A stretch of DNA of 64,000 nt, taken from NCBI GenBank assembly GCA_938084885.1, contig CALKGG010000119.1, positions 10,393 to 74,392 on the forward strand, given 5' to 3'. A model generated the notes under the pieces. The model saw only the letters and a program-made list of their open reading frames with translations. It was not told where the DNA came from and ran no database searches. The translations under genes and the position numbers were made by a program. The DNA comes from an uncultured Acidimicrobiales bacterium (lineage in GTDB: Bacteria > Actinomycetota > Acidimicrobiia > Acidimicrobiales > SHLQ01). Shown here piece by piece: positions 45,797 to 60,888 of this stretch (the first letter of the stretch is position 1; each line of letters opens with the position of its first letter).

Positions 45797-47152
45797 TCAG
45801 ATCGACAGCAGGACGTCAGCCACGACCTCTGCAATGGCGCGTTGCCCATCGGTATTGGGATGTGCGCAGTCGAGCGCCGATATCAACGGAGCGTCGACGC
45901 CACCGTCGTCAGCGCACAGCGCAGTGGCACCACCGGTGAAGGTGTCGACGAGACCCTGAAACGGACCCAACCCGTCGCGCAGCGCATCGACGCCGAGCCC
46001 ATTTGGCGCTTCAAAGACGTCGGCAACTCCGTCGAGCCGAGCAACCGACACCCTCCCCTCGCGTTGGCCGGCGGCCACCTCCAACAGCATGGTGTTCAGC
46101 TCGTCGACGATGCGGTTGCTCGCAGCCACCATGCAATCCCCACGGCAACCCTCGACGCCGATCGGGGTGCTCGCAACGGGGTTGAACGCCGTGGTGATGA
46201 CCACGTGCGCACTCGTCGTCGCCATCAACACATCGAACGTATTGCCGAGGTTGGCTCGGACTGTCGAAATCCGTCGATCGAGTTCGACAGCATCAACAGC
46301 GGCAACAGGATTTCCACCGGCATCGGGAAGAAGGAACTCCTCGAGGTCGAAGAGACCAACATCTGACGCACCGATGGTGAGCGTCACGACCGTCGGGTTG
46401 AGCAAGGTCGCACGCTCGAGCTGAGACATCGAATCGCCAATGACATTGCCTTGTCGGTCCGTCGCCGAGGTGGCGAGCGTCGCGAGGTCGCTCGACCCGG
46501 CGGCGGAGCACGCCACGATGAGCAGCTCGGATTGTGACCCCAGCGAACCGGCTTCGATCAGTTGGTCGAACGCCAACGTGCTGTACGCGTCGGCCTCGCT
46601 GCGAAAGCAGTCATCGGCGCCAACGAAGTCGCTTCGATCCCGGCCAAAGCCAGCAGCGATGGAATCTCCCATTGCGAGCAACATGTCGACGCTCGGTTCG
46701 TGGTGGGCAATCAGTTCCACCGTTGCGTTTCCGACAAGCCCACCGGAGTCGGTTGCGGTCATTTCGACCTGCCATTCGCCAGCCTCTGTGGGTTCCCATT
46801 CGAACCCGATGATCGTGCCGCGCACGTTGGTCACTGGCCGGAATCCGGGCACGTCATCGCCGAAGGCGCGAATCACGACATCGTCGCCGTTGGGGTCGGT
46901 GACAACAACCGCTTCTGAAACCTGACGCCCAACGACGGCAAAGGCCATCTCGGGCATCCGAACGTTGGGCGGTTGTGGCGGAATCGTCGAGGTGGTCGTA
47001 GTCGAGGTCGTGGCTTCGGTCGCGATCGCTCCGCTCGACGACAGTTCGTCATTGGACACAGATTGGTCGCTCGAACTCGACGACGAACATGCAGTCAGTA
47101 CGCCAGCAAATGCGAACATGGCCAGCCAGAAACGTGGTCGAATACGCATCAC
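45797..47152 (-). CDS. lipoprotein: Ig-like domain plus SGNH/GDSL hydrolase
   Basis: The lipobox is FAGVLTACSS. The GDSL block is LAMGDSIAAGFG, with a later GASD block (LTIGASDVG) and a C-terminal HP motif (DCAHPNTDG). Confidence 0.7.
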   Translation of the reverse strand: MMRIRPRFWLAMFAFAGVLTACSSSSSSDQSVSNDELSSSGAIATEATTSTTTTSTIPPQPPNVRMPEMAFAVVGRQVSEAVVVTDPNGDDVVIRAFGDDVPGFRPVTNVRGTIIGFEWEPTEAGEWQVEMTATDSGGLVGNATVELIAHHEPSVDMLLAMGDSIAAGFGRDRSDFVGADDCFRSEADAYSTLAFDQLIEAGSLGSQSELLIVACSAAGSSDLATLATSATDRQGNVIGDSMSQLERATLLNPTVVTLTIGASDVGLFDLEEFLLPDAGGNPVAAVDAVELDRRISTVRANLGNTFDVLMATTSAHVVITTAFNPVASTPIGVEGCRGDCMVAASNRIVDELNTMLLEVAAGQREGRVSVARLDGVADVFEAPNGLGVDALRDGLGPFQGLVDTFTGGATALCADDGGVDAPLISALDCAHPNTDGQRAIAEVVADVLLSI

Positions 47153-47262
47153 CCGCCCATGCTTACAGCAGGAGCGGCCCGAACGTAGGCGGGCGGGAGA
47201 AACTTGGACAAGAAGCGACTCCGCGACGCCGTGCAGATGCGTTGCGAACCCGCTGGCGTATC

Positions 47263-50200
47263 GTGAAGCTTGTGCTGTTTCGGCTGGTGCTCAAGAACTT
47301 GGTACAACGGCCGCTTCGCTACGTACTGACCTGCATCGCGATCACCTTCGCCGTCGCCCTCGTCGTTGCGGTCCTGATCTTTACCGGCGGGCTCCGCACC
47401 ACATTTGGTGAGCTCGCCGAGAACATCGAATCGGGATACGACATTGCGGTACAGCCGCGAATCGAGTTCGGCGATGGACTAATTGCTCCGACCATCTCGA
47501 CGAACCACGTCGAACGCATCACGCCAATCGACGGCGTCCTCGCCGTGCAGCCTCGTGTGATCAACGTCGGGGTCATAGCCGTCGATGGCCAGGGTGTTCC
47601 GACCTTTGCCCCGGCCGGACCAAATCTCGGCAGCTTGTGGGATGGCGACGCACCGAATACGAGATTGTTCCGCCAATCCGGGCGCCCTCCGGTGGGCCCT
47701 GATGAGTTTGCGCTCGATATTGATGCGTTCGCCGACGGCGATTACGAGCTCGGCGAACGTTATGTGTTGCAGCTTCCTACAGAGACCGAGCCCGGCCGTA
47801 CCTTCGAACTCACCGGCACCTTTACCTTTGCGAACCCCGAGCGAAATGCACTCGTCGGGGCGCGCATTGTTGCATTCGACGAGGACACCGCGGTCGAGCT
47901 TCTCAACGATGGGCAAGGCTTCACCGACATCACGGTCATCATCGAGCAAGACGCTGATCAGCTCGCGGTCATGGCCAATATTGCCAATGTCGTCGACGAG
48001 AACATCATCGTCCGGTCCCAAGAAGAGGTGCTCGCCGAGACGCAGGGGCAATTCAGCGAGTTTCTCGACATCTTCCAAACCGTGCTGCTGGCCTTCGCGG
48101 CGATCATCAGCGGCGTCAGCTGGTTTCTCATCTACAACGTGTTTTCGATCACGCTCGGGCAACGAATCCGAGAGTTGGGCCTGCTCCGGGCCGTTGGCGC
48201 GCTCGGAAGCCAAGTCACCAAGCTGATGTTTGGCGAGGCGCTTGCGCTCGGTATTTTCTCGACGATTGTTGGGATTCCGGTCGGGCTTGGTCTGGCGTGG
48301 CTTCTCCGGGCGGCACTCATCGCTCTCGGATTTCCCGACAGCACTGGGCTGCCGCTCAGCGGCTTTGCGATCACGGCGGCGATCTTCACCGGCATCTTTG
48401 TCACGATGAGCGCGTCGTTGTGGCCAGCAATTCAAGCTCGCCGCGTCTCTCCGCTCGCCGCAATGCGTGATGGCGCAACCCAAACCGAGCTGGAGTCGGT
48501 CAACAACCGGGTTCTCGGGGCCGTACTGCTCGTAGTGGCGCTGGTCCCTCTTCGGTTCGTGTTTCAGTTCGGTTGGCGCTCAACGATTGGAGTGCCGCTC
48601 GTTGCCGCGGCGCTCGTCTACTTCGCTGTCCGGTTGGCGTGGCGTCCGGCCGCCCGATTCGTCATGCTCCCCATTGGCATCATCACGTTGCTGGTGAGTC
48701 TCTTTGGGAGCTTCGAGCTCGGAGAGACCTTTGGGTTGATCGGTGCGGGCTCGATCCTCGTTCTCGTCGGCTCGATCCTCATTATGCCGATATTCGCTGG
48801 ACACGTCACCACGCTCGTCGGGAAATGGCCGACGATGGTCGTGGTCGGGCTTGCCGGTGTTGCGTTCGGGTTGGGTGGCGTTGTGTCTCTCGGAGCGGCT
48901 GGATTCATTTTGGTCTCCGGTGTTCCCAATACGGTGATCGACGCCACAGGAACGGCGATCTCGCCGATAGCGCTCGTCTTGCCGCTCGTATTCATTGCCG
49001 TGATGTTGGTGATCACGAGCTATGGCACGATACGAACAGCACTCGGGGCCAGGGGGTTGGCTGGTCGAGTGGCCCGGTCGAATGCCTCGCGCAATCCGCA
49101 GCGGACAGCAACCACCGCGGCGGCCTTGATGATTGGTCTGGCGCTCGTGACCGCCGTGACCGTGGTCGGCGATTCGATCAAGTCTTCTGTCAGCGACGCG
49201 CTCGATTCTTCGATCACGGCGGATTGGCTGATTCGAGGCCCGCAGAACGGACCGGGCGGTACGCCATTTTCGGCGGCGGCCGCTGAGCGTGTTGCCGCCC
49301 TTGACGAAGTCGAGTCGGTCGTGCCGTTTCGCGTTGCCTTCCCGGCGGCGTGGGTGACGAGTGAGTCGGGCGAACTGCGCGCTGAAGACTTCATCGAGTT
49401 TCTTCCAATCGTGCTTCAACTGATCGATGACGACGCCGACCTCGACCCGCAAGAGCTTCTGGCGCTACGGGATGAGCTCGGCACCGATGTCGAGGTGAAC
49501 GATGCGGCAGCGGTTGACTTTGCGAACCTGGACCGCCACGTCGACCCCGACTTCATCGAGCGCGATCTGGACCTTGCAACGCGTGACAACGCCGTCTACC
49601 TCGTCGATCAAGTCGCTGAGGAGAAGGGACTTTCGGTCGGCGACACGTTCTCGGCGCTGTTCGTTGATCTCCAAAGCGAAGACCTTGTCGTTGCCGGGAT
49701 TTATGAGAACGGTTTCGTTCTCGGAAATCGCGTCATCACCCTCGACTTGTGGGAGCGTCACTTCCCGACTGGTAGCGACAACTTCCTCACGGTGGTGACC
49801 GCATCTGGGGTTCCCGAAGAAGTAGCTCGTGCGGCGATCGAAGCCGAACTGTTGACGGACTTTCCAATCCTTGAGGTCAGTAACCGTGAGGAGTTTGCCG
49901 CGGCGACCGAGCTGCAACTCAATCAGACGCTGGCGACGGTAAACGTGCTCCTCGGGCTCTCCGGATTCACGGCGATTCTGGGCATCCTTATTGCCCTGGC
50001 ACTTTCGGTGTTTGAACGAACTCGCGAGATTGGCCTTTTTCGGGCGATTGGTACGACCCGATCACAAACGCGCTGGATTATTCGTTGGGAGGGTGTGATT
50101 ATCGCGATCTTCGGTGGGGTCTTTGGTCTTGCGGCCGGTGTTGGGCTCGGGGTTTTGATTACCGCGAAGCTTCCTGAAATCTTGGTGACGACGATTTCGG

Positions 50201-50322
50201 TTCCGATCCCGACGTTGGTTGCGTACCTGGTTTTTGCTGCGCTGACGGGCCTCGCCGCCGCCGTCTATCCGGCCTGGCTCGCCGGACGCATGAATGTTCT
50301 TGACGCAATCAGCACCGAATAG
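47263..50322 (+). CDS. large MacB-type ABC permease with two FtsX domains and no adjacent ATPase
   Basis: The GTG at 47263 gives VKLVLFRLVLKNLVQRPLRYVLT. The FtsX motifs are TLGQRIRELGLLRAVGALGSQV and VFERTREIGLFRAIGTTRSQT, each with TM clusters. The track start at 47089 overlaps the divergent lipoprotein gene. Confidence 0.8.
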   Translation: MKLVLFRLVLKNLVQRPLRYVLTCIAITFAVALVVAVLIFTGGLRTTFGELAENIESGYDIAVQPRIEFGDGLIAPTISTNHVERITPIDGVLAVQPRVINVGVIAVDGQGVPTFAPAGPNLGSLWDGDAPNTRLFRQSGRPPVGPDEFALDIDAFADGDYELGERYVLQLPTETEPGRTFELTGTFTFANPERNALVGARIVAFDEDTAVELLNDGQGFTDITVIIEQDADQLAVMANIANVVDENIIVRSQEEVLAETQGQFSEFLDIFQTVLLAFAAIISGVSWFLIYNVFSITLGQRIRELGLLRAVGALGSQVTKLMFGEALALGIFSTIVGIPVGLGLAWLLRAALIALGFPDSTGLPLSGFAITAAIFTGIFVTMSASLWPAIQARRVSPLAAMRDGATQTELESVNNRVLGAVLLVVALVPLRFVFQFGWRSTIGVPLVAAALVYFAVRLAWRPAARFVMLPIGIITLLVSLFGSFELGETFGLIGAGSILVLVGSILIMPIFAGHVTTLVGKWPTMVVVGLAGVAFGLGGVVSLGAAGFILVSGVPNTVIDATGTAISPIALVLPLVFIAVMLVITSYGTIRTALGARGLAGRVARSNASRNPQRTATTAAALMIGLALVTAVTVVGDSIKSSVSDALDSSITADWLIRGPQNGPGGTPFSAAAAERVAALDEVESVVPFRVAFPAAWVTSESGELRAEDFIEFLPIVLQLIDDDADLDPQELLALRDELGTDVEVNDAAAVDFANLDRHVDPDFIERDLDLATRDNAVYLVDQVAEEKGLSVGDTFSALFVDLQSEDLVVAGIYENGFVLGNRVITLDLWERHFPTGSDNFLTVVTASGVPEEVARAAIEAELLTDFPILEVSNREEFAAATELQLNQTLATVNVLLGLSGFTAILGILIALALSVFERTREIGLFRAIGTTRSQTRWIIRWEGVIIAIFGGVFGLAAGVGLGVLITAKLPEILVTTISVPIPTLVAYLVFAALTGLAAAVYPAWLAGRMNVLDAISTE

Positions 50323-50374
50323 GCGAGCCGGGGCCCGAGCGGCCCGCACGAAGTGCCAGAGCGGGAGCCGGGCG

Positions 50375-50933
50375 CTAGCTGGAGGCGGGTTGGCACCGGG
50401 GGCACCATGTGGTGATGCGGGCGAATTGGCCTTGGTCCTTTTTGAGGATCGGTGTTGCGCACCGGCGACAGGGTTTGCCGCGTCGCCCATATACCGCCAA
50501 ACCTCCGGGGACGGTGGTGCGTGACGTGGTCGTCAAGTTCGCGATCAGCAGTCGTGATGCACGCCGATAGAGCTGTGCCAGGCGTTCATCTGCAACGGTG
50601 TCGATCGTGTCGAAGGGGTTGGTCTGTAGCGACCAAAGCACCTCGCTCTTGTAGACGTTGCCGATTCCCGATGCGACCCGCTGATCGAGCAGCACATCGG
50701 CGATCATCTCGTTGCCCGACACGAGCGTTCGTGCTCGGCGGACAACCTCGTCGATGTCGACGTTCGAGAGGCAAAGGTCGGTGCTTGCCGGTTGCGGTCA
50801 CGGCCGTGATGTGTTCGCCGGGGCGAGGGCGGTCACGAGCGAGACGCGGTGCGCTGAACCTCAGCAGTTCGGCGTCGACGAGGGCCGGCCTGAGCCGGTT
50901 CGCTGTTCGGTGAATCGTGTCGCCTTCAGGCAT
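50375..50933 (-). pseudogene. nei: nei/fpg-family DNA glycosylase remnant (internal deletion plus frameshift)
   Basis: The N-terminal 51 codons (MPEGDTIHRTANRLRPAL...TATGKH) are in one frame, from 50933 to 50781. From about 50779 the H2TH and zinc-finger part continues in a different frame (DLCLSNVDIDEVVRRARTLVSGNEMIADVLLDQRVASGIGNVYKSEVL...CRRCATPI...WCPRC). Together they total about 186 codons, which is too short for the family. Confidence 0.75.
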
Positions 50934-50975
50934 GGGGAAAGTCTGTCAGTGCGTGACGGTGAAGGACGGTCCGAA

Positions 50976-53900
50976 TCAGCCGTCGACCGGCGGCACGACG
51001 ACATCTTGGGTGAAGGTATCCCTGCCGGTGCGGTCACGGACAACGAGGGTGACGGTGAATGTTCCGCCCTCGTCCGGATAGCGGACGACGAGGCGATTGT
51101 CGTCGACGAATAGGACCTCTTCGCGGCCGCTGAGACGAAAGGTGATCTCGGCGTCGTCGGCGGCTGTAGATGTGTTGACGAACTCCACCACACCGGGCTC
51201 AATGACCCGCCACGTAAATGCCGCCGCCACCTCGTCAGGTTCGTCAGGTGCAATGGAGTCGACGGTGAATCTGACCGGGTCTCTGTCGTTCCCGAACACG
51301 TTGCTCGCAATGACTTGACCCGAGTACCTGCCGTTTCCAGGGACACGGAAGGTCGGCGAGGAGGTATCGCCGCCTGCGACGAGTTCGGCCCCGGGGATGT
51401 TCCACTCCCAGCGGGTTGGGTCACGATCGAAGTCGGATTCGAGTCGGACGAGGTTTCCGTCGATCGAAGCAATGCGCACATCGAGTACGCGGGGTTCCTG
51501 TCCGGCTTGCACGCTGGGCGCTCTGATCGTGACCGAGTCGGTCTCACCTTCGGCACTGGTGACGGTGAGGGTGACGAGTGGCTGTCCGGTGCGATCGAAC
51601 GAGAAGAACGTCGTTGGCTGGTCCGGTGTCGAGTTGGTGACCGCTCCAGCGGCGCTCCACGCAAACCCGGTTGCCCGGGCAGAGCCTTCGCTCGTGCAGC
51701 TCAATTGACGTCCCGACACACTGCATGTGGCGACGGCGACTGGAGGGTTCGAGATTGTCACACGCTGGCTCGCCGGACCTGCGGTTGCCACTTGATTTGC
51801 GGTTGTGAGCGTCACGTTGAACGAACCGCCCGCAAAGTCATGAATCGGATTTTGCTCACTCGATGTTGCACCATCGCCGAAGTTCCAACGCCACTGATCC
51901 GCGTTCTGCGACTGGTCGATAAAGCGCACAGTATTTTCGTCGACTATCTCGAACCGGAACGAGGCCGTTGGCGGATCGAGGACGGTGATCTCGGTCTCGC
52001 TTGATGACCGGCCGCCTTCGTTGCTTGCGGTGAGCCGGACGGTGTAGGTGCCCGCCCTGTCCCATCGTCGGAACGGGTTCTGATCGGTCGATGTTCCGGC
52101 GCCCTCAAATTCCCACTGCCATTGCTCGGGATCATTTGCCGACGTGTCTTGGAACCCAATGTCGCTGCCGGTTGCAATGACCGTCGAACCTACCCTGAAC
52201 GATGCGACCGGCGGGTCGACGGGTTCGTTCACGACGATCGTGACGCCACTCCGGTCGCTTCCGGCCTCGTTGGCAACTCGCAAGGTGACACGATAGGTGC
52301 CCGCTTCATTCCAGGAGTGCCGGGGGTTGCGGGTGGCCGCGGTCTCGCCGTCATCGAAGTTCCAGACGAACTGGTCGGGGCTGTTTGCTGACTCGTTGGT
52401 GAATTGGATCGTCTCCCCAACCAGCACCTGGGTTGCGCTTTGGCTGAAGCTCGACACGGGTTCGACGACGCGCTCTCGCACCTCGATGTCGGCGAAGGTT
52501 CGATCGGTGCCCGCCGAATTTTCTACGACGAGCGTGATTCGATATTCACCCGGCTCCGGCCACGAGTACCGAGTGGTCTGCCCGTTCGCATTCGTGCCGT
52601 CACCAAAGCGCCACCGGGTGCGGGTGGGATCGTTCAACGACGCGCTCTCGAACGTGACGAACTGGTCGGTCATGACGATCTGCGGGATTGGTGCAATTGC
52701 GGCGATTGGCGGTTCGACGCTGTCGAGAACGGTGATGGTCACCTCGCTCGTCGTCGATCCTGCTTCGTTCGATGCAGTGAGCACCGCCAGAAAGGTGCCT
52801 GCGGTTTCGTAGGTGTGGGTAACTTCTTCTCCTACCCCGGTGCGTTCGTTGCCAAAATCCCACTCGAGAAGGTCGACCTCGCCGGTGGTACGACTTTCGA
52901 AGGTCACAAACTCGCCCTCTTCGATCGTGGCGCGACTGAATTGGAAGTCGGCGTTCGGTGGCAGCACCACGGATTCGGGGACGATGTTGACGGTGGTCGA
53001 CTGGCTCGAGCTTGCGCCGGTCGCATTCGTCACGGTGAGAATGATCTCGTACAAGCCAGCGTCGCTCCATGCCTTTTCGACGTTGGGCAGCAATTGGGTG
53101 GTTCCGTCGCCGAAGGTCCACGCCCACTCGACTGGAGACCCCAGGCTCGAATCGGTGAAACGCACGATCTCGCCGACCGTTGCCTCAACGGTCGATACCG
53201 AGAAGTTCGCAATGAGCGTTTCGGCAAGTTCTGGTAATTCGGCCGCTGACTCGACCTCTGTTTCCACGGCGACATCGAACGCATCGTCGTCTTGGCCATC
53301 ATTGGCATCTTCGCCGTCGCCGTCGCCGTTGGTGGCGTTGTCGGCAGATATCCCGAACACCTCCGGTGCTGGCAGTTGGGCAAGGTCGATCTGGTCGAGG
53401 ACTGGCTCGTCGGTAGTGGAACGCCCGCTCGTTCCACCGCCAGTACGTTGCCCGTCAGTGGCAGCAATGACGGCCTCTCCGCTATCGCCGATTAGAAGAA
53501 GCCCCCGGTCGTCGTTGCTTCCTCCGGCGAGTGAACTTCCATCGCCGTCGACGTCGGGATCGCCAGGAGCGGCGAGTACCGCGGACAACTTTGCGATCGG
53601 GGTGATTTGGCCACGGTCGACGACAGCGGCAAACGGTCCAAGTCGTTCGTTTGCCCACACCATCGAACCAAACACCTCGAGTTCGAATGGTTCGCCGTTC
53701 GTGCCGAACGGTAGATCGTTGAGCACTTCCCCGCTGTCGAGGTCGATGCTGATGATTCTTCCCTCGCTCCAGTGCGGCAGGTACGCGACGCCGTCGACAG
53801 CCACGGGTGCGCCGTACTCGCCGTCAGCAATATCGATGTCGATGTCGCTGCAGTCCCCGTTTGGGCTGCTGATTGCGAGGGTCGATGTCGCAGCGTTCAG

Positions 53901-54713
53901 CGAGAGAATGATCGGGTCTTCTTCGGGGCCCGCCCCGCCGTGCACGGCGCCGTTTGCGGCACTGCGCATGCAGATCGGCTGGCCGAGTTCGCCGGTGGCC
54001 AAGAGTTCGGCCATGGACAGGCGGGCCGGGTCGAGAACGAAGACGCTTCCGCCGCTGCGAACCATTTGCCGCTGATCGGTCACGGCCTCACTATCGACCG
54101 TGGCGGTCTCTTCGACGACGATTAGTGGCGCTGCGCCGTCGGCGGCGACACGAACAACGCTCGACCGCTCGCCATCAAAGCCGAAGACGGTGCCGTCCAT
54201 GCCTTGCACCACGCCGGCGAGGGGAGACGAAAGTTCGCTAGAAGTGACAACCCCCGACCCCGGATCGATGTGGATGACTTGGTCGTCATCGATCACGAGC
54301 ACCCCGTCTTGTCGATCGTCGTGGCCGAAGAGGGCGAGGTTCCGATCGAGCGCACCTTCGGCGAGGGAGAGTTCAATCGTTTCGCTGACCGTCAGGGAAG
54401 ATCCGTTCACCATCGAGATGGTGTTGCGCGAAGTATTTAGAACAACGGCACCATCGGCGTGGGGCATCGCGACAAAGTCGTCCCCGTCGCCAGCCACTTC
54501 GATCCGCGAGGAGATTTCCCCGGTGACACCATTGATCTGCAAGAGCTCGCCGTCGATGCCGTGTTCGATCCAGGCGGTTGGATTGTCGAGGGTGATGGCT
54601 GCGGCCGACTCATCGCCTGGACGGAAGATCACGAGCAGGAACAAGGCAGCGAGCGCCGTGACCGCAAACGCGACGAACGCTCGTCCGGTAGGAAGAGCCA
54701 TGACGCGTGCCAT
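50976..54713 (-). CDS. very large secreted/anchored protein: uncharacterised N-terminal region plus nine PKD-like domains
   Basis: The N-terminal TM/signal is GRAFVAFAVTALAALFLLVIF. Nine Ig-like modules of about 85 aa carry PKD hallmarks such as VRFTDSSLGSPVEWAWTFGDGTT, WDFGNERTG...THTYETAGTF, WRFGDGTNANG and WNFGDGATSSEQNPIHDF. The start could be 54701, 54713 or 54722. Confidence 0.85.
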   Translation of the reverse strand: MARVMALPTGRAFVAFAVTALAALFLLVIFRPGDESAAAITLDNPTAWIEHGIDGELLQINGVTGEISSRIEVAGDGDDFVAMPHADGAVVLNTSRNTISMVNGSSLTVSETIELSLAEGALDRNLALFGHDDRQDGVLVIDDDQVIHIDPGSGVVTSSELSSPLAGVVQGMDGTVFGFDGERSSVVRVAADGAAPLIVVEETATVDSEAVTDQRQMVRSGGSVFVLDPARLSMAELLATGELGQPICMRSAANGAVHGGAGPEEDPIILSLNAATSTLAISSPNGDCSDIDIDIADGEYGAPVAVDGVAYLPHWSEGRIISIDLDSGEVLNDLPFGTNGEPFELEVFGSMVWANERLGPFAAVVDRGQITPIAKLSAVLAAPGDPDVDGDGSSLAGGSNDDRGLLLIGDSGEAVIAATDGQRTGGGTSGRSTTDEPVLDQIDLAQLPAPEVFGISADNATNGDGDGEDANDGQDDDAFDVAVETEVESAAELPELAETLIANFSVSTVEATVGEIVRFTDSSLGSPVEWAWTFGDGTTQLLPNVEKAWSDAGLYEIILTVTNATGASSSQSTTVNIVPESVVLPPNADFQFSRATIEEGEFVTFESRTTGEVDLLEWDFGNERTGVGEEVTHTYETAGTFLAVLTASNEAGSTTSEVTITVLDSVEPPIAAIAPIPQIVMTDQFVTFESASLNDPTRTRWRFGDGTNANGQTTRYSWPEPGEYRITLVVENSAGTDRTFADIEVRERVVEPVSSFSQSATQVLVGETIQFTNESANSPDQFVWNFDDGETAATRNPRHSWNEAGTYRVTLRVANEAGSDRSGVTIVVNEPVDPPVASFRVGSTVIATGSDIGFQDTSANDPEQWQWEFEGAGTSTDQNPFRRWDRAGTYTVRLTASNEGGRSSSETEITVLDPPTASFRFEIVDENTVRFIDQSQNADQWRWNFGDGATSSEQNPIHDFAGGSFNVTLTTANQVATAGPASQRVTISNPPVAVATCSVSGRQLSCTSEGSARATGFAWSAAGAVTNSTPDQPTTFFSFDRTGQPLVTLTVTSAEGETDSVTIRAPSVQAGQEPRVLDVRIASIDGNLVRLESDFDRDPTRWEWNIPGAELVAGGDTSSPTFRVPGNGRYSGQVIASNVFGNDRDPVRFTVDSIAPDEPDEVAAAFTWRVIEPGVVEFVNTSTAADDAEITFRLSGREEVLFVDDNRLVVRYPDEGGTFTVTLVVRDRTGRDTFTQDVVVPPVDG

Positions 54714-54862
54714 TCCATCCATTGCAACAGAAAATGCCAGCGAATAGCAAAACACACACATTCTGTAGGCATCGCACGCTTCTCTGCCGTTCCCCCATGT
54801 GTGGTTCACGACGTTGCCAGACCATCCGAGGCCCGGACCTTTGCACCGCTAGTCTCCAAAGC

Positions 54863-55683: not shown

Positions 55684-56235
55684 ATGGATCGAGACTTGAA
55701 GCGATGTCTAGGACAGATGATGAAGGGAGTGCAGGTCGTTGCCTCCACTCACGACGGCGTGACCAGGGGGTACTGCTCCCACTGGGTAATGCAGGTGTCC
55801 TTCGATGAACCAATCATGCTGGCGTCGATCTCACCCAAACACGACACGCACGCGCTCATCGAGGCGTCTGGCTGGTTTACGGTTTCGAACCTCGCTGGCG
55901 ACCAGGTCGACGTTGGCCAGTACTTTTCGTATCCCGGTCGAAAGTTCAAATACATCGCTCCCGAATATTTGACCGAGGTCGATGGCGTACCGGTCGTGGC
56001 AAACAACATCTCGTGGATCAAGTGCGATGTCATCGAAAAGCTCGACACTGCACTCGACCATGACCTCTTCTTGGCGAGGGTGAGCCAATTCGGCGAGGGC
56101 CGTCTCGGCGAGGACCCGCTGTTGTATTCCTCCCGACACGGCTGGCGCGTCGCCGGAGCCAAAGCACGCGAACCCGGTCGAAGTATCCGAGACGAACTGC
56201 TCGCTCGCCTCGAAGCCGAAGGCCTCACCGACTAG
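55684..56235 (+). CDS. flavin reductase-like (FMN-binding split-barrel) protein
   Basis: The ATG at 55684 gives ...GVQVVASTHDGVTRGYCSHWVMQVSFDEPIMLASISPKHDTHALIEASGWFTVSNL...HDLFLARV, which fits the flavin reductase-like domain pattern. Confidence 0.65.
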   Translation: MDRDLKRCLGQMMKGVQVVASTHDGVTRGYCSHWVMQVSFDEPIMLASISPKHDTHALIEASGWFTVSNLAGDQVDVGQYFSYPGRKFKYIAPEYLTEVDGVPVVANNISWIKCDVIEKLDTALDHDLFLARVSQFGEGRLGEDPLLYSSRHGWRVAGAKAREPGRSIRDELLARLEAEGLTD

Positions 56236-56262
56236 CCCAACCGCGTCGCTCAACCGCGTCGC

Positions 56263-59200
56263 TCAACGGCGCGGCGGGATCCAAGTCAGGCCTTTGTAGG
56301 CCTTCACAAAACCGTGCTCAGTAAGGATGTCGGCAAGAGGAGAATCGCCGCTCGGATCGCCGTCGATCTTCGATATCTCGAGCGAACGGACATGTCCTCG
56401 GCGTGCCAAATCCTTCAGCGCATCGACCCACAGCGAACTTTCGTGGGCGGCTGGGAAACCAACGACCGACTTGGCTCCCCGATCCACATAGATTCCGGCC
56501 TCGCCGTTGACGATCACCACGTGCGCTCCCGCCGCACGCGCCGGACGGCCAGCCGAATCGGGCCACGGAATGGACGCCCCGAACGGTTGTGCTGGGTCGG
56601 TCGCCGCCAGCAATACCACCGAGTCCTCTTCGAAGTCCGTCGCCGCCGAAGTGCGCAACCGGTCGACCGCGCCCGGCAACGCGAACTGTGCTGCACCAAG
56701 TCCTTCGACGAAGTAGCCCCGTCGAAGATCGCCTCGCTCCTCAAGCGCTTTGAGCACGGGATACACCCCGGCGAAACCGCCGCTGATCCCCTCACCCAAC
56801 GCTGCTTCGCGAGTCAACACGCCATAACGCTCGACGAGTTGCAGCGCCTGTGCTGTCGTGCGTTGGGTGGGCGGAGCTTGCTGAGTCAGCAGTCCCGAAA
56901 CCAGCGACCAACGACCGGCGGCCTGGGGCGGACCAGCAGCTTGCATCTGACCAACCCGTGGCCGGCGTCGACGTTGTGTCGAAGACCGTGACTTTTTCGT
57001 GCCGAGAAATGACCGCACAGGCGCCAACGAATCGTTCGTGACCTCTCCAGCCCACACAAGATCCCACAGCGCAGCGAGGACTGCCTTGTCGCCGTACTGC
57101 AAACCCAGTTGCTGCGCTGCGCCCACGAGGTCGTACCAAAACGATGCTCCGTTCGCAGCGAGGTGGGACCGAAGCGCGTCGTGCAACGGCTCGGCAGGAG
57201 GCGCATCGTTCGGCGAAATGAGCAACGCCGCGTGATCTCGAAAGGCTAGGCGAATTCGACCATCCTTCGAACCAATCGCCCCGGCACCAATCCACACGAC
57301 CTCACCCGATGTCATCAACGCATCGAGATCGCTCGTTCGGTATTCGGCCATTCGCGCCGGCAACACCGACCGTTCAAGGACCGACGCCGGAATGGCTGCG
57401 CCTTGCAGGATCGCAATGACGTCGGCGAGGCCGTCGGGGCCCCGACGAGGAATCCCAACACCTTGCCAGTGCGGAAGGAACCGAGCGAGGGTGTTCTTCT
57501 CGACTGGAGCCACCTCGGCACGCAGAGCAGCGAGCGATCGGCGGCGTAGTTGGCGAAGCACCCCGTCGTCGACCCACTCGCGTGTTGTCCCGTCAGGGCG
57601 GAACTCGCCTCGCACCAGTCGACCGCACGCGGCGAGCGATTCGAGCGCCGCATCGGCGCGCTCGACTGAGAGCGCAAAGCGGGACGCAAACTGCTCGGTC
57701 ACGAACGGGCCGTGGGTCTTTGCAAAGCGGATGGCGAAGTCACCCACCGGGTCATCGACGCTATCGATGTAGGCGGCGGGAAGTCCCATGGGTAGCGAGA
57801 CGCCGAACGCATCACGAAGCCGCCCGGCGTCTTCAGAGGCGCTGAACCGGCGATCGTTGCCAATGCCAATCTCGATGACGCGCAGATCTTTCACCAACTG
57901 CGCAAGGGCCGCATCGACGTCGACATCGTCGGTGCAACGAGCGTCGATCTCGTGCCGATCGAGGGGCCCCAAAATGCGGAACAGGTCGTGCAATTCGTCG
58001 CCGTCTCGAGCTCGGCGTCCATCGACCAACCGCTGCAATTCGAGCTCGAGGTCGGCCAAGACCCCTGGGTCGAGTAGCTCGCGCAACTCCTCGGCGCCGA
58101 GGAGATCTCGAAGAAGATCCCGGTCGAGCGAAAGCGCGGCAGCGCGACGCTCGGCCAATGGCGCGTCACCTTCGTACATGTACACCGCAATCCACCCAAA
58201 CAAGAGCGACTGAGCAAACGGCGACGCACGCGGCGTCTCTACCGGCACCATGCGAATCGAACGGTCGGACAACCCGTGCAAGACAGTTCGCAACGCTGGC
58301 ACGTCGAACACGTCGTTCAAACACTCACGCGTTGCTTCGAGCAGGATCGGAAAGCTCGGATACTTCGCGGCGACCCGCAACAAATCCGCCGCGCGCTGCC
58401 GCTGCTGCCACAATGGTGTCCGTTGGTCAGGTCGACGACGGGGCAACAACAGTGAGCGCCCAGCGCACTCACGAAAGCGACTCGCAAACAACGCGCTTCC
58501 AGGAAGCTCGGCGACAACCCGCTCATCGATCTCGGTCGGATCGAGAAAGAGGTCGTCGAGCTCGATCTCCTCGGCGGACTCGGGTAGCCGGATCACGATG
58601 CCGTCGTCGGCCCACATCATCTCGACGTCCATGCCCCACCGCTGCGACAGCTGGGCCCGAAGCGCCATACCCCACGGCGCATGAACTTGTGCCCCAAACG
58701 GTGAGAGGATGCACACTCGCCAATCGCCGATCTCGTCTCGGAACCGCTCGACCACAATGGTGCGGTCATCGGGGACCACGCCGGTCGCCTCGCGTTGATC
58801 CGACACGTAGTTGAGGACGTTGGCGGCCGCGAGCTCGTCGAGGCCGTGACGCTCGACCAGACGGCGTTTGGCTGCGTCATCGTCGACGGCTTGGATCTCA
58901 CGGACAAACGCTCCGAGGGCCTGACCAAGTTCGATTGGACGCCCAGGGCCGTCTCCGTGCCAGAACGGCATCTTCCCGGGCTGGCCTGGAGCCGGCGTCA
59001 CCACGACACGCTCGAACGTGATGTCCTCGATACGCCATGTCGACGCGCCCAACAAGAATGTCTCGCCCGGGCGGGACTCGTAGACCATCTCCTCATCGAG
59101 TTCGCCAACACGAGTGCCGTCGGGAAGGAACACCCCGTAGAGCCCGCGATCGGGAATGGTGCCCGCGTTGGTGACCGCTAGTCGTTGGGCCCCTTTGCGA

Positions 59201-60888
59201 CTCCGGATCGTTCCTGCCACCCGATCCCACACGATTCGGGGTCGCAACTCGGAAAATTCTTCAGACGGGTACCGCCCCGACAACAGGTCGAGGACCCCTT
59301 CGAAGACATCGTCGGAGAGCTCGGCAAAGTTCGCTGCTGACCTGATCGTCGCCAGAAGTTCGTCGAAGCCCCAATCTTCGAGCGCGGTCATCGCCACGAT
59401 CTGCTGAGCGAGCACATCGAGCGGATTGCGCGGATAGCGCGTGTGCTCGATCTCGCCCTTCTGCATGCGATCGACGACCACCGCAGTCTCGAGCAGGTCG
59501 GATCGGTGTTTTGGGAAGATCTTGCCGGTCGACCGTGCGCCGACCTGGTGGCCTGCCCGGCCGACGCGTTGTAGGCCACGGCTTACCGAGCCGGGAGATT
59601 CCACCTGGATGACGAGATCGACCGCTCCCATATCGATACCGAGCTCGAGGGAGCTGGTGGCCACGATTGCTCGAATCGCCCCTCGCTTTAGCTGGTCTTC
59701 GATGTCGAGTCGCCTGGCCTTCGACAGGGATCCATGATGGGCTTGGATCCGTTGGAACTCATCTTGGTGCTCGGCGGGGTTGGTATTCGCACCTTCAACG
59801 TCGGTGCTGCGTTGGCGCGAAATCTCGTCTTCTTCGTCCCAAATTTCGTTGAGGCGCCCAGCCAGCCGCTCGGCAAGACGTCGCGAGTTGACGAACACGA
59901 TCGACGAATTGTGGGCGCGGATCTGGTCGAGAATCCGAGGGTGTACCGATGGCCAGATACTCGTCCGCTGCGGGCCAGATACAGCTGGACCACTGAGCGG
60001 CTCGTCGGCGACCTTGCCGAGTTCGGCCATGTCCTCGACCGGAACAATGACTTCGATATCCATATTGGGCTCGGAGCCGGCGTCGATTATTTCGACCGGC
60101 CGCCACGAGTGAACTCCATCAACAACCTCCCGCCCGCCCAGAAATCGGGAGATTTCGTCGAGTGGTCGCTGTGTTGCCGATAGGCCAATGCGCTGGACGG
60201 GCCGACCAACGAGGCGTTCCAGCCGTTCGAGGGTCAACCCCAGGTGTGCGCCCCGCTTTGTCGCAGCGACCGAGTGAATCTCGTCGATGATCACCGCATC
60301 GACCGACCGAAGCGTCTCCTTGGCCGCCGAGGTCAACATCAGATACAGCGACTCTGGAGTCGTGATGAGGAGGTCAGGAGGGTTGCGAACGAGTTTGCGC
60401 CGCTCATCGGCGGGCGTGTCACCCGTGCGCATGCCAACGGTTGGAACGTGCACTGTCTCGCCGAGTCGTTCGGCGGCGAGGGTGATCCCCCGTAGCGGCG
60501 CTCGCAGATTTTTCTCGACATCGACAGCGAGAGCTCGTAGCGGCGAAATGTACAGGAGCCGAGTTCGTGCGTCTCGCTCTGGGACCTCGCTCGTCATCAA
60601 CCGGTCGATACCAAAAAGAAAGGCGGACAGCGTCTTACCAGAACCAGTGGGTGAGACGATCAACCCGTTCGCGCCACGTGCAATATGTGGCCACCCCAAC
60701 GTTTGCGGTGGGGTCGGCGCAGGAAATGACGTTTCGAACCATGCCCGGACGGGACGAGAAAAGTGGTCAAGTGGCGATATGGACACACCGACAACCGTAG
60801 TGTCGAGCGCTGCGAGAACGCCGTTTGAACTGCGAGCAGCGGTCGCCGGGCGTGCCAACGCCCGCATCGTATGTGACCAACGGCACAT
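56263..60888 (-). CDS. lhr: Lhr-type large ATP-dependent DNA helicase
   Basis: SF2 motifs are SPTGSGKTL, IIDEIHSV (DEIH), SAT and HHGSLS...VATSSLELGIDMG...RVGRAGH. These are followed by a C-terminal extension of about 700 aa, typical of Lhr (about 1500 aa). The true start is probably downstream of 60888, since conserved sequence begins around SPLDHFSRPVRAWF. Confidence 0.9.
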   Translation of the reverse strand: MCRWSHTMRALARPATAARSSNGVLAALDTTVVGVSISPLDHFSRPVRAWFETSFPAPTPPQTLGWPHIARGANGLIVSPTGSGKTLSAFLFGIDRLMTSEVPERDARTRLLYISPLRALAVDVEKNLRAPLRGITLAAERLGETVHVPTVGMRTGDTPADERRKLVRNPPDLLITTPESLYLMLTSAAKETLRSVDAVIIDEIHSVAATKRGAHLGLTLERLERLVGRPVQRIGLSATQRPLDEISRFLGGREVVDGVHSWRPVEIIDAGSEPNMDIEVIVPVEDMAELGKVADEPLSGPAVSGPQRTSIWPSVHPRILDQIRAHNSSIVFVNSRRLAERLAGRLNEIWDEEDEISRQRSTDVEGANTNPAEHQDEFQRIQAHHGSLSKARRLDIEDQLKRGAIRAIVATSSLELGIDMGAVDLVIQVESPGSVSRGLQRVGRAGHQVGARSTGKIFPKHRSDLLETAVVVDRMQKGEIEHTRYPRNPLDVLAQQIVAMTALEDWGFDELLATIRSAANFAELSDDVFEGVLDLLSGRYPSEEFSELRPRIVWDRVAGTIRSRKGAQRLAVTNAGTIPDRGLYGVFLPDGTRVGELDEEMVYESRPGETFLLGASTWRIEDITFERVVVTPAPGQPGKMPFWHGDGPGRPIELGQALGAFVREIQAVDDDAAKRRLVERHGLDELAAANVLNYVSDQREATGVVPDDRTIVVERFRDEIGDWRVCILSPFGAQVHAPWGMALRAQLSQRWGMDVEMMWADDGIVIRLPESAEEIELDDLFLDPTEIDERVVAELPGSALFASRFRECAGRSLLLPRRRPDQRTPLWQQRQRAADLLRVAAKYPSFPILLEATRECLNDVFDVPALRTVLHGLSDRSIRMVPVETPRASPFAQSLLFGWIAVYMYEGDAPLAERRAAALSLDRDLLRDLLGAEELRELLDPGVLADLELELQRLVDGRRARDGDELHDLFRILGPLDRHEIDARCTDDVDVDAALAQLVKDLRVIEIGIGNDRRFSASEDAGRLRDAFGVSLPMGLPAAYIDSVDDPVGDFAIRFAKTHGPFVTEQFASRFALSVERADAALESLAACGRLVRGEFRPDGTTREWVDDGVLRQLRRRSLAALRAEVAPVEKNTLARFLPHWQGVGIPRRGPDGLADVIAILQGAAIPASVLERSVLPARMAEYRTSDLDALMTSGEVVWIGAGAIGSKDGRIRLAFRDHAALLISPNDAPPAEPLHDALRSHLAANGASFWYDLVGAAQQLGLQYGDKAVLAALWDLVWAGEVTNDSLAPVRSFLGTKKSRSSTQRRRRPRVGQMQAAGPPQAAGRWSLVSGLLTQQAPPTQRTTAQALQLVERYGVLTREAALGEGISGGFAGVYPVLKALEERGDLRRGYFVEGLGAAQFALPGAVDRLRTSAATDFEEDSVVLLAATDPAQPFGASIPWPDSAGRPARAAGAHVVIVNGEAGIYVDRGAKSVVGFPAAHESSLWVDALKDLARRGHVRSLEISKIDGDPSGDSPLADILTEHGFVKAYKGLTWIPPRR

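What the first reader, a model, noticed from the sequence alone, without database searches (positions are those of the whole stretch)
50375..50933. nei/fpg DNA glycosylase pseudogene: catalytic N-terminus and zinc finger retained, middle deleted and frame broken
Seen: MPEGDTIHR...TATGKH (codons 1-51, frame A) is joined at about 50780 to DLCLSNVDIDEVVRRARTL...LLDQRVASGIGNVYKSEVL...CRRCATPI...WCPRC in a different frame. The ORF track accordingly splits it into 50586-50933 and 50375-50722. The whole locus is 559 nt. Established: Fpg/Nei enzymes have an N-terminal beta-sandwich domain of roughly 120 aa before the H2TH motif and total about 250-290 aa. Inference: about 80-100 codons of the N-terminal domain were deleted and a frameshift was left behind, so the gene is inactivated.
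Basis: partly seen in the sequence, partly recalled or inferred. Interest (0 to 1): 0.55.

Follow-up and report, generated by a model that had tools for sequence, protein, structure and literature searches.

The report
Recently broken Nei2-type DNA glycosylase gene
This is an ordinary, apparently recent pseudogene: a DNA-repair glycosylase gene of an uncultured Acidimicrobiales bacterium lost 212 bases from its middle, which removes most of the catalytic domain and breaks the reading frame.

Summary
On the minus strand, codons 1-51 of a Nei2-type Fpg/Nei glycosylase (ATG at 50933, ending GKH at 50781) are followed by one base (C, 50780). The H2TH and zinc-finger part then runs in the +1 frame (50779-50378, stop 50377-50375).

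Intact orthologues at the same syntenic position have exactly 71 codons (213 nt) between these points. The lesion is therefore one clean 212-nt deletion, and because 212 is not a multiple of 3 it causes the frameshift itself.

The deleted stretch holds 18 columns invariant in 60 homologues and six of the eight strands of the catalytic beta-sandwich. An independent Logan assembly of run ERR9287623 matches the window exactly across the junction, and the orthologues share no word longer than 6 nt at the breakpoints, so assembler collapse is unlikely.

The remnant shows no further decay: 0 of 37 invariant columns changed, dN/dS about 0.09, and relative-rate tests not significant with proper outgroups. 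The event is therefore recent. There is no second fpg/nei gene in the 64 kb window. Truncated and pseudogenised fpg/nei genes are already known in Actinomycetota (M. tuberculosis Rv0944, M. leprae). Interest is low.

The parts
50781..50933 (-). N-terminal remnant: codons 1-51 (MPEGDTIHR...VTATGKH). It keeps Pro2, Glu3 and Lys50, helix 1 and the first two beta-strands.
   Evidence: translation; family HMM positions 1-51, E 1.6e-22. Pfam PF01149 positions 1-60 of 117; secondary structure of the intact orthologue.
50779..50781 (-). Deletion junction. It runs from the last base of the His51 codon (50781), through the single residual C (50780), to the first base of the Asp codon that is residue 123 in intact orthologues (50779). 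212 nt are missing here.
   Evidence: one gap of 212 alignment columns against two intact orthologues; orthologues have exactly 213 nt where the window has 1.
50375..50779 (-). C-terminal remnant in the +1 frame: 134 codons plus the TAG stop (DLCLSNVDIDEVV...CPRCQPASS*). It holds the H2TH domain and the four-cysteine zinc finger (CRRC...CPRC).
   Evidence: translation. PF06831 E 1.5e-11, PF06827 E 4.4e-4; family HMM positions 125-258, E 1.6e-62; aligns to 8TJG residues 141-252.
50586..50933 (-). The ORF a ribosome would read from the native start: 51 native codons followed by 64 out-of-frame codons (RPLPLERRHRRG...HRCR), ending at TGA.
   Evidence: This exact product is absent from the protein collection.
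50375..50707 (-). 110-aa ORF starting at an internal ATG (MIADVLLDQRV...). This is the gene as called in the public records (P0012).
   Evidence: P0012 is 100% identical, held by NCBI, Logan and ENA; it is the called gene on Logan contig L001.
50976..54809 (-). Upstream neighbour on the same strand: a 1277-aa protein with six PKD repeats. The same neighbour occurs in intact orthologous loci.
   Evidence: Pfam. (synteny with L003 and L004).
47089..50322 (+). Convergent downstream neighbour: a MacB/FtsX-type permease. The same neighbour occurs in intact orthologous loci.
   Evidence: Pfam. (synteny).

Best explanation
The locus is a recently inactivated Nei2-type Fpg/Nei DNA glycosylase/AP-lyase gene of an uncultured Acidimicrobiales bacterium. 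A single 212-nt deletion joined the His51 codon, via one residual C, to the Asp codon that is residue 123 in intact orthologues.

Because 212 is not a multiple of three, ribosomes starting at the native ATG (50933) read 51 correct codons and then 64 wrong-frame codons before a TGA (50588-50586). Even if the frame were restored, the product would lack residues 52-122. That stretch holds six of the eight strands of the beta-sandwich, which positions Pro2, Glu3 and Lys50 over the DNA groove. No active glycosylase or lyase can be made; this step is inferred from the structure and not assayed.

The H2TH and zinc-finger part is most likely just an untranslated or poorly translated remnant. The remnant sequence still looks fully constrained, so the deletion is young relative to the divergence from the nearest sampled relatives.
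For: 1. Homology and orthology. Intact homologues of 254-263 aa are 70-90% identical. They occupy the same position between a large surface-repeat protein (PKD repeats shown for the window's copy only; no Pfam hit on record for the L003 copy) and a convergent MacB/FtsX permease in L003 and L004.
2. Size and nature of the lesion. The protein alignment lacks L52 to P122. The DNA alignment shows one clean 212-column gap against two orthologues. Four orthologous loci, two of which (L003 and L004) encode the same protein, each have exactly 71 codons (213 nt) there, against 1 nt in the window.
3. What was lost. 18 of the columns invariant in 60 homologues lie in residues 52-122. In an AlphaFold model of the intact orthologue P0001 (pLDDT 91.7), the strands at 51-56, 61-65, 71-76, 88-94, 97-102 and 106-110 fall in the deleted part. 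The Nei2 crystal structure paper describes the N lobe as an eight-strand beta-sandwich, with Pro2 and Lys51 essential for lyase activity (PMC11323726).
4. Not an assembler artefact. Logan contig L001 (run ERR9287623, 1289 nt) is 100% identical to window 51626-50338 and passes straight through the junction. Orthologues share no exact word longer than 6 nt between the two breakpoint regions, so a k-mer collapse is implausible.
5. Recency. The remnant changes 0 of 37 invariant columns and 1 of 59 columns conserved at 95% or more. dN/dS against orthologues is 0.08-0.10, compared with 0.05-0.07 among the orthologues. Relative-rate tests with L003, L006 or L008 as outgroup are not significant; the only nominal exception (14 v 3, p = 0.013) used L005, which is itself close to L002. 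Neither fragment has a stop in its own frame.
6. All 80 best relatives among GTDB species genomes match over the full length.
Against: No raw reads were examined. The two assemblies may rest on the same sequencing run, so a population that also carries an intact allele cannot be excluded.

The absence of any decay in the remnant fits a very recent event, but it also fits continued selection on the C-terminal ORF.

The loss of activity is inferred from structure and was not measured.

The rest of the genome could not be searched, so it is unknown whether paralogues compensate.
Confidence: 0.88

Rival explanations
1. The deletion is an assembly or consensus artefact, or a minority variant. The organism would then actually carry an intact gene of about 255 aa.
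For: The window comes from a metagenome-assembled contig: P0012 is seen on one 86-kb contig held by NCBI and ENA. No reads could be inspected. The Logan contig may derive from the same run as the deposited assembly.
Against: An independent assembler reproduces the junction exactly, within a 1289-nt unbranched contig. The intact orthologues share no word longer than 6 nt at the two breakpoints, so a de Bruijn graph has nothing to mis-join. A random mis-join would not be expected to fall inside a single gene with perfectly collinear flanks.
Confidence: 0.06
2. The C-terminal ORF (110 aa from ATG 50707, or 115 aa from GTG 50722) is expressed as a stand-alone H2TH and zinc-finger DNA-binding protein and is kept by selection. 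It would be comparable to the N-terminally truncated Fpg2 (Rv0944) of M. tuberculosis.
For: The C fragment has all invariant residues intact and a low dN/dS. Public annotation calls this ORF as a gene. There is a precedent for a truncated Fpg family gene retained in the M. tuberculosis complex (PMC2734929).
Against: The same conservation is seen in the N fragment, which cannot belong to such a protein, so the conservation is better explained by recency. The exact protein forms a cluster of one member. The only short homologues, P0010 and P0082, lie on contigs of 1037 and 792 nt and are probably cut by the contig ends. The sigma-70-type consensus scan found no promoter-like site in 50200-51200, though it also found none in the shuffled controls and does not cover other promoter types. 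No Shine-Dalgarno-like sequence precedes either start (by eye), but the native start also lacks one.
Confidence: 0.05
3. Programmed +1 frameshifting or transcriptional slippage at the junction restores a 185-aa fusion protein that still functions.
For: Both fragments are open and abut with a one-base offset.
Against: The junction (GGC AAG CAC C GAC CTT TGC) has no known +1 shift site, no homopolymer run and no in-frame stop. The fusion would still lack six of eight sandwich strands and 18 invariant residues. None of the 120 listed homologues shows this architecture, apart from the window's own product P0012.
Confidence: 0.01

Closest known systems
Mycobacterium smegmatis Nei2 (PDB 8TJG), a Fpg/Nei family AP lyase and 5-hydroxyuracil glycosylase
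   Same: It is the best solved-structure match. The intact orthologue P0001 aligns to it end to end (residues 1-255 to 1-252, E 7.6e-33). The window fragments align to 8TJG residues 1-52 and 141-252. The shared features are the MPEGDT N-terminus, the GKH lysine, the H2TH motif and the CxxC...CxxC zinc site. A large Lhr helicase gene lies on the same strand nearby.
   Different: The window copy lacks the equivalent of residues 52-122 and is frameshifted. Lhr is not the adjacent operon partner, as it is in mycobacteria (PMC11323726). It lies about 5.3 kb upstream, with three genes in between.
M. tuberculosis Rv0944 (Fpg2) and the M. leprae fpg/nei pseudogenes
   Same: These are Fpg/Nei family genes in Actinomycetota that have lost the N-terminal catalytic part or are pseudogenes, while intact orthologues persist in relatives (PMC2734929).
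   Different: Rv0944 is described as lacking the N-terminal part. Here the extreme N-terminus (Pro2, Glu3, Lys50) is kept and an internal block is removed with a frame break. It belongs to a different paralogue family (Nei2-type) and a different class (Acidimicrobiia).
E. coli endonuclease VIII (Nei; PDB 1K3W and 1K3X)
   Same: It has the same domain plan: an N-terminal beta-sandwich, H2TH and a zinc finger. The intact orthologue matches it at E 1.1e-18.
   Different: It is only distantly related in sequence, and the window copy is not intact.

Membership tests
Fpg/Nei DNA glycosylase family (Nei2-type) | N-terminal Pro2 nucleophile followed by Glu3 | tested here: met
   The sequence reads MPEGDT at 50933-50916. 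P2 and E3 are invariant in 60 homologues.
Fpg/Nei DNA glycosylase family (Nei2-type) | Conserved phosphate-binding lysine (Lys51 of Nei2, in the GKH motif) | tested here: met
   GKH forms codons 49-51. K50 is invariant. The role of this lysine is taken from PMC11323726.
Fpg/Nei DNA glycosylase family (Nei2-type) | Complete N-terminal eight-strand beta-sandwich domain (PF01149) | tested here: not met
   Only profile positions 1-60 of 117 match. Family HMM positions 52-124 are absent. Six of eight strands and 18 invariant columns are deleted.
Fpg/Nei DNA glycosylase family (Nei2-type) | H2TH DNA-binding domain (PF06831) | tested here: met
   E 1.5e-11, 44.6 bits against a cut-off of 34.7.
Fpg/Nei DNA glycosylase family (Nei2-type) | C-terminal four-cysteine zinc finger | tested here: met
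   CRRC and CPRC are present and align with the invariant C226, C229, C248 and C251. PF06827 scores 20.4 bits, just under its 21.3 cut-off.
Fpg/Nei DNA glycosylase family (Nei2-type) | One continuous ORF of about 250-290 aa | tested here: not met
   There are two frames offset by one base, and the locus is 559 nt.
Mycobacterial lhr-nei2 operon | nei2 immediately adjacent to lhr and co-transcribed with it | tested here: not met
   Lhr is at 56263-60888 on the same strand. Two opposite-strand genes and the PKD protein gene lie between it and the nei remnant. L003 has the same spaced arrangement.
Pseudogene (unitary, by deletion) | Orthologous to intact genes at the same syntenic position | tested here: met
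   The flanking genes are collinear with L003, L004 and L002.
Pseudogene (unitary, by deletion) | A disabling lesion that is real and not an artefact | tested here: inconclusive
   Two assemblies agree exactly across the junction, and no repeat exists that could cause a collapse. Reads were not available.
Pseudogene (unitary, by deletion) | Relaxed selection on the remnant | tested here: inconclusive
   There is no excess of changes at conserved columns. dN/dS is 0.08-0.10. Relative-rate tests are not significant with the L003, L006 or L008 outgroups. This fits a recent event, but the test has little power because dS is 1 or more.
Pseudogene (unitary, by deletion) | No functional product | not testable with these tools
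   This needs expression data or an enzyme assay.

The most novel reading that the evidence does not exclude
The surviving H2TH and zinc-finger ORF (50375-50707 or 50375-50722) is translated on its own. It would act as a small DNA-binding protein without catalytic activity, for example as a lesion or AP-site binder working with the nearby intact Lhr helicase. That would be a domain-shedding step and not simple gene death.
Probability: 0.05. Interest if true: 0.3.

Novelty: new member of a known kind. Interest (0 to 1): 0.12.

Why it matters
It matters little beyond annotation. The public records call only a 110-aa H2TH protein here, which hides the fact that this is a disrupted Nei2-type repair gene. 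This lineage has probably lost one oxidised-base and crosslink-related glycosylase while keeping Lhr, the helicase that is its operon partner in mycobacteria. It adds one more case of dispensability in the Fpg/Nei family, which is already documented in mycobacteria.

Tried and rejected
1. A second fpg/nei gene, or the deleted piece relocated elsewhere in the window. A family HMM run on the six-frame translation of all 64 kb found only the two fragments. The next best hit had E 0.06.
2. Direct repeats that could explain the deletion or an assembler collapse. The intact orthologues share no word longer than 6 nt between the two breakpoint regions, and none at the 212-nt offset. Only 1-2 nt of possible microhomology (C or CC) is visible. 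The local repeat scan gave only short chance matches.
3. Signs of decay in the remnant. I checked conserved-column violations, Nei-Gojobori dN/dS and Tajima relative-rate tests. None shows a clear excess.
4. Promoter and terminator consensus scans around the locus. Nothing was found, so they say nothing about expression of the C-terminal ORF.
5. Provenance by exact protein look-up. P0012 is in NCBI, ENA and Logan but has no accession or name. Neither the 115-aa native-start product nor the GTG-start product is in the collection.
Paralogues elsewhere in the genome could therefore not be sought.

Full report
**Observation**

The feature lies on the minus strand. From the ATG at 50933, the sequence reads MPEGDTIHRTANRLRPALVDAELLRFSAPRLARDRPRPGEHITAVTATGKH (51 codons, ending at 50781). 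It then continues out of frame to a TGA at 50588-50586. This is the listed ORF 50586-50933.

One base further on, the +1 frame reads DLCLSNVDIDEVVRRARTLVSGNEMIADVLLDQRVASGIGNVYKSEVLW...CRRCATPI...WCPRCQPASS, with its stop at 50377-50375. The listed ORF 50375-50722 starts at an internal GTG of this frame.

- Pfam places the N fragment at positions 1-60 of 117 of the Fpg N-terminal domain. Alone this is weak (E 0.13).
- Pfam places the C fragment on H2TH (E 1.5e-11, above the cut-off) and on the Fpg/IleRS zinc finger (20.4 bits, cut-off 21.3).
- A family-specific HMM, built from up to 100 full-length homologues and run against the six-frame translation of the whole window, hits only these two pieces. 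The N fragment matches profile positions 1-51 (E 1.6e-22) and the C fragment matches 125-258 (E 1.6e-62).

**What is missing**

A protein search returned thousands of Fpg/Nei proteins. The closest are intact proteins of 254-263 aa, 70-90% identical to the remnant. One 110-aa entry (P0012) is the exact product called in the public records of this very contig.

In the protein alignment, the intact relatives continue after GKH with L(F/M)I(T/S)FSGGLVLETHMKMTGSWHLY...WRKP...ARV..EV.GW.AVCFSAPVVK...VGR.DLGP. They then reach DLC, where the window resumes.

At DNA level, the window aligned with two intact orthologues (L002, L003) shows one uninterrupted gap of 212 columns and collinear sequence on both sides. 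In four orthologous loci, two of which encode the same protein, exactly 71 codons (213 nt) separate the His51 codon from the Asp123 codon. The window has a single C there (50780).

The lesion is therefore one 212-nt deletion. Since 212 = 3 x 70 + 2, the deletion itself breaks the frame and no separate frameshift mutation is required.

**Orthology**

- L003 (GCA_020357715.1) and L004 carry the intact gene between a protein of more than 1100 aa upstream and a convergent MacB/FtsX permease. The flanks align with the window at 68-73% nucleotide identity in the same order.
- In the window, the neighbours are a 1277-aa protein with six PKD repeats (50976-54809, minus strand) and a 1077-aa FtsX/MacB permease (47089-50322, plus strand).
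- The 80 best relatives among GTDB species genomes are nearly all labelled Acidimicrobiales, Acidimicrobiia or Actinomycetota MAGs, and all match over the full length. The taxon assignment rests on these relatives.

**Consequence for the protein**

The closest solved structure is M. smegmatis Nei2 (8TJG). The intact orthologue P0001 aligns to it end to end (E 7.6e-33), and the window fragments align to 8TJG residues 1-52 and 141-252.

The Nei2 paper describes an N lobe made of two four-strand sheets forming a beta-sandwich, flanked by helix 1. Pro2 sits in the groove between the lobes, and Pro2 and Lys51 are essential for AP-lyase activity (PMC11323726).

An AlphaFold model of P0001 (60-sequence alignment, mean pLDDT 91.7) gives helix 4-18 and strands at 25-27, 41-48, 51-56, 61-65, 71-76, 88-94, 97-102 and 106-110. 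Deleting residues 52-122 removes six of the eight strands and the linker to the H2TH domain. Eighteen of the columns invariant in 60 homologues lie in this stretch, among them H65, M68, G70, W72, H73, W81, R89, C101, F102 and P105.

The catalytic Pro2, Glu3 and Lys50 and the four zinc cysteines survive. The scaffold that holds them over the DNA does not, and the two halves are in different frames. I infer a complete loss of enzymatic function. This was not assayed.

**Is it real?**

Reads were not available. However, Logan contig L001, assembled independently from run ERR9287623, is 1289 nt long and 100% identical to window 51626-50338. It runs unbranched through the junction, with about 850 nt on one side and 440 nt on the other.

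In the intact orthologues, the longest exact word shared between the two breakpoint regions is 6 nt, and it is not at the right offset. A de Bruijn assembler therefore has no repeat on which to collapse. For the same reason, the mutation was not a slippage between substantial direct repeats; at most 1-2 nt of microhomology (C or CC) is visible. I rate an artefact or a minority allele at about 6%.

**Age**

- The remnant changes none of 37 columns invariant in 54 close homologues, and one of 59 columns conserved at 95% or more (G33R). That places it in the middle of the distribution for intact proteins.
- Pairwise dN/dS against the nearest orthologues is 0.08-0.10, compared with 0.05-0.07 among those orthologues, at dS of 1 or more.
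- Relative-rate tests with L003, L006 or L008 as outgroup are not significant, with p values from 0.06 to 0.80. The one nominally significant comparison (14 v 3, p = 0.013) used L005 as outgroup for the window against L002, and L005 is itself close to L002.
- Neither fragment has acquired a stop in its own frame.

Almost all of the divergence from sampled relatives therefore accrued under purifying selection, so the deletion is recent. The same data cannot by themselves exclude selection on the C-terminal ORF. However, the N fragment is conserved just as well, and it could not be part of such a product. Recency is the simpler explanation.

**Rivals considered**

1. Assembly artefact or polymorphism: discussed above.
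2. A stand-alone H2TH and zinc-finger protein from ATG 50707 or GTG 50722, by analogy with the truncated Rv0944 of M. tuberculosis (PMC2734929).
   - The exact protein forms a cluster of one member.
   - The only short homologues lie on contigs of about 1 kb or less and are probably cut by the contig ends.
   - No promoter-like site was found in a scan that has little power here. I give this rival about 5%.
3. Programmed +1 frameshifting. There is no recognisable shift site at GGC AAG CAC C GAC CTT TGC, and the fusion would still lack the core of the sandwich. I give it about 1%.

**Comparison with what is known**

Truncated and pseudogenised fpg/nei genes are documented in Actinomycetota. [quoted passage not shown] Single and double deletions of nei and fpg genes have no growth phenotype in M. 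smegmatis under laboratory conditions.

Loss of one such paralogue in an environmental Acidimicrobiales lineage is unsurprising. The locus fails the membership test for a functional Fpg/Nei enzyme because it has an incomplete N domain and no continuous ORF. It is clearly derived from a Nei2-type gene.

**Verdict**

This is a real, correctly interpreted and ordinary feature: a young unitary pseudogene made by a single 212-nt deletion. Its main value is to correct the annotation, since public records list only a 110-aa H2TH protein. Interest is 0.12.

Noticed in passing
window 56263-60888 (-): There is an intact 1541-aa Lhr-type helicase (DEAD, Helicase_C, WH_Lhr, DEAD_assoc, WH2-4_Lhr) on the same strand as the nei2 remnant, about 5.3 kb upstream. 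In mycobacteria lhr and nei2 are operon neighbours. Here, and in relative L003, they are separated by a flavin reductase and a transglutaminase-like gene on the opposite strand, plus the PKD protein gene. Lhr is intact while the Nei2-type gene is dead.
   Followed up: partly
L003 1837-2463, compared with window about 56235-56263: Relative L003 has an IS200-like Y1 transposase gene (PF01797) and a 53-aa ORF between Lhr and the flavin reductase gene. In the window these two genes are only about 27 nt apart, so the insertion is specific to that relative's lineage.
   Followed up: no
L002 671-1438: The gene call for P0006 (232 aa) starts at an internal Met (MAFRAPRL...). The full MPEGDTIHR start is in frame 69 nt upstream, so the true product is 255 aa. 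The public gene call is truncated and the gene itself is not.
   Followed up: yes
L031, L055, L065, L080: Contigs whose records are titled 'uncultured Burkholderiales' or 'uncultured Bifidobacterium sp.' carry Nei2-type genes 49-52% identical to the Acidimicrobiales protein. They rank among Ilumatobacteraceae and Acidimicrobiia hits. The bins are probably mis-binned or mis-labelled.
   Followed up: no
window 50976-54809 (-): This is a 1277-aa protein with six PKD repeats, plus weak InlK_D3 and Ig-like matches, immediately upstream of the nei remnant with a 42-nt spacer. The orthologue in L003 (1238 aa) had no precomputed Pfam hit. Its N-terminal 570 aa or so has no domain assignment.
   Followed up: no
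window 50465-50467 (-), codon Ala in CRRCATPI: The glycine that follows the first CxxC of the zinc finger (CRRCGTPI in all 13 other full-length or partial sequences of alignment A1) is alanine in the window. Together with G33R and Y-to-F in QGQYAR, it is one of only 7 residues unique to the window against its three nearest orthologues. This is not statistically in excess.
   Followed up: yes
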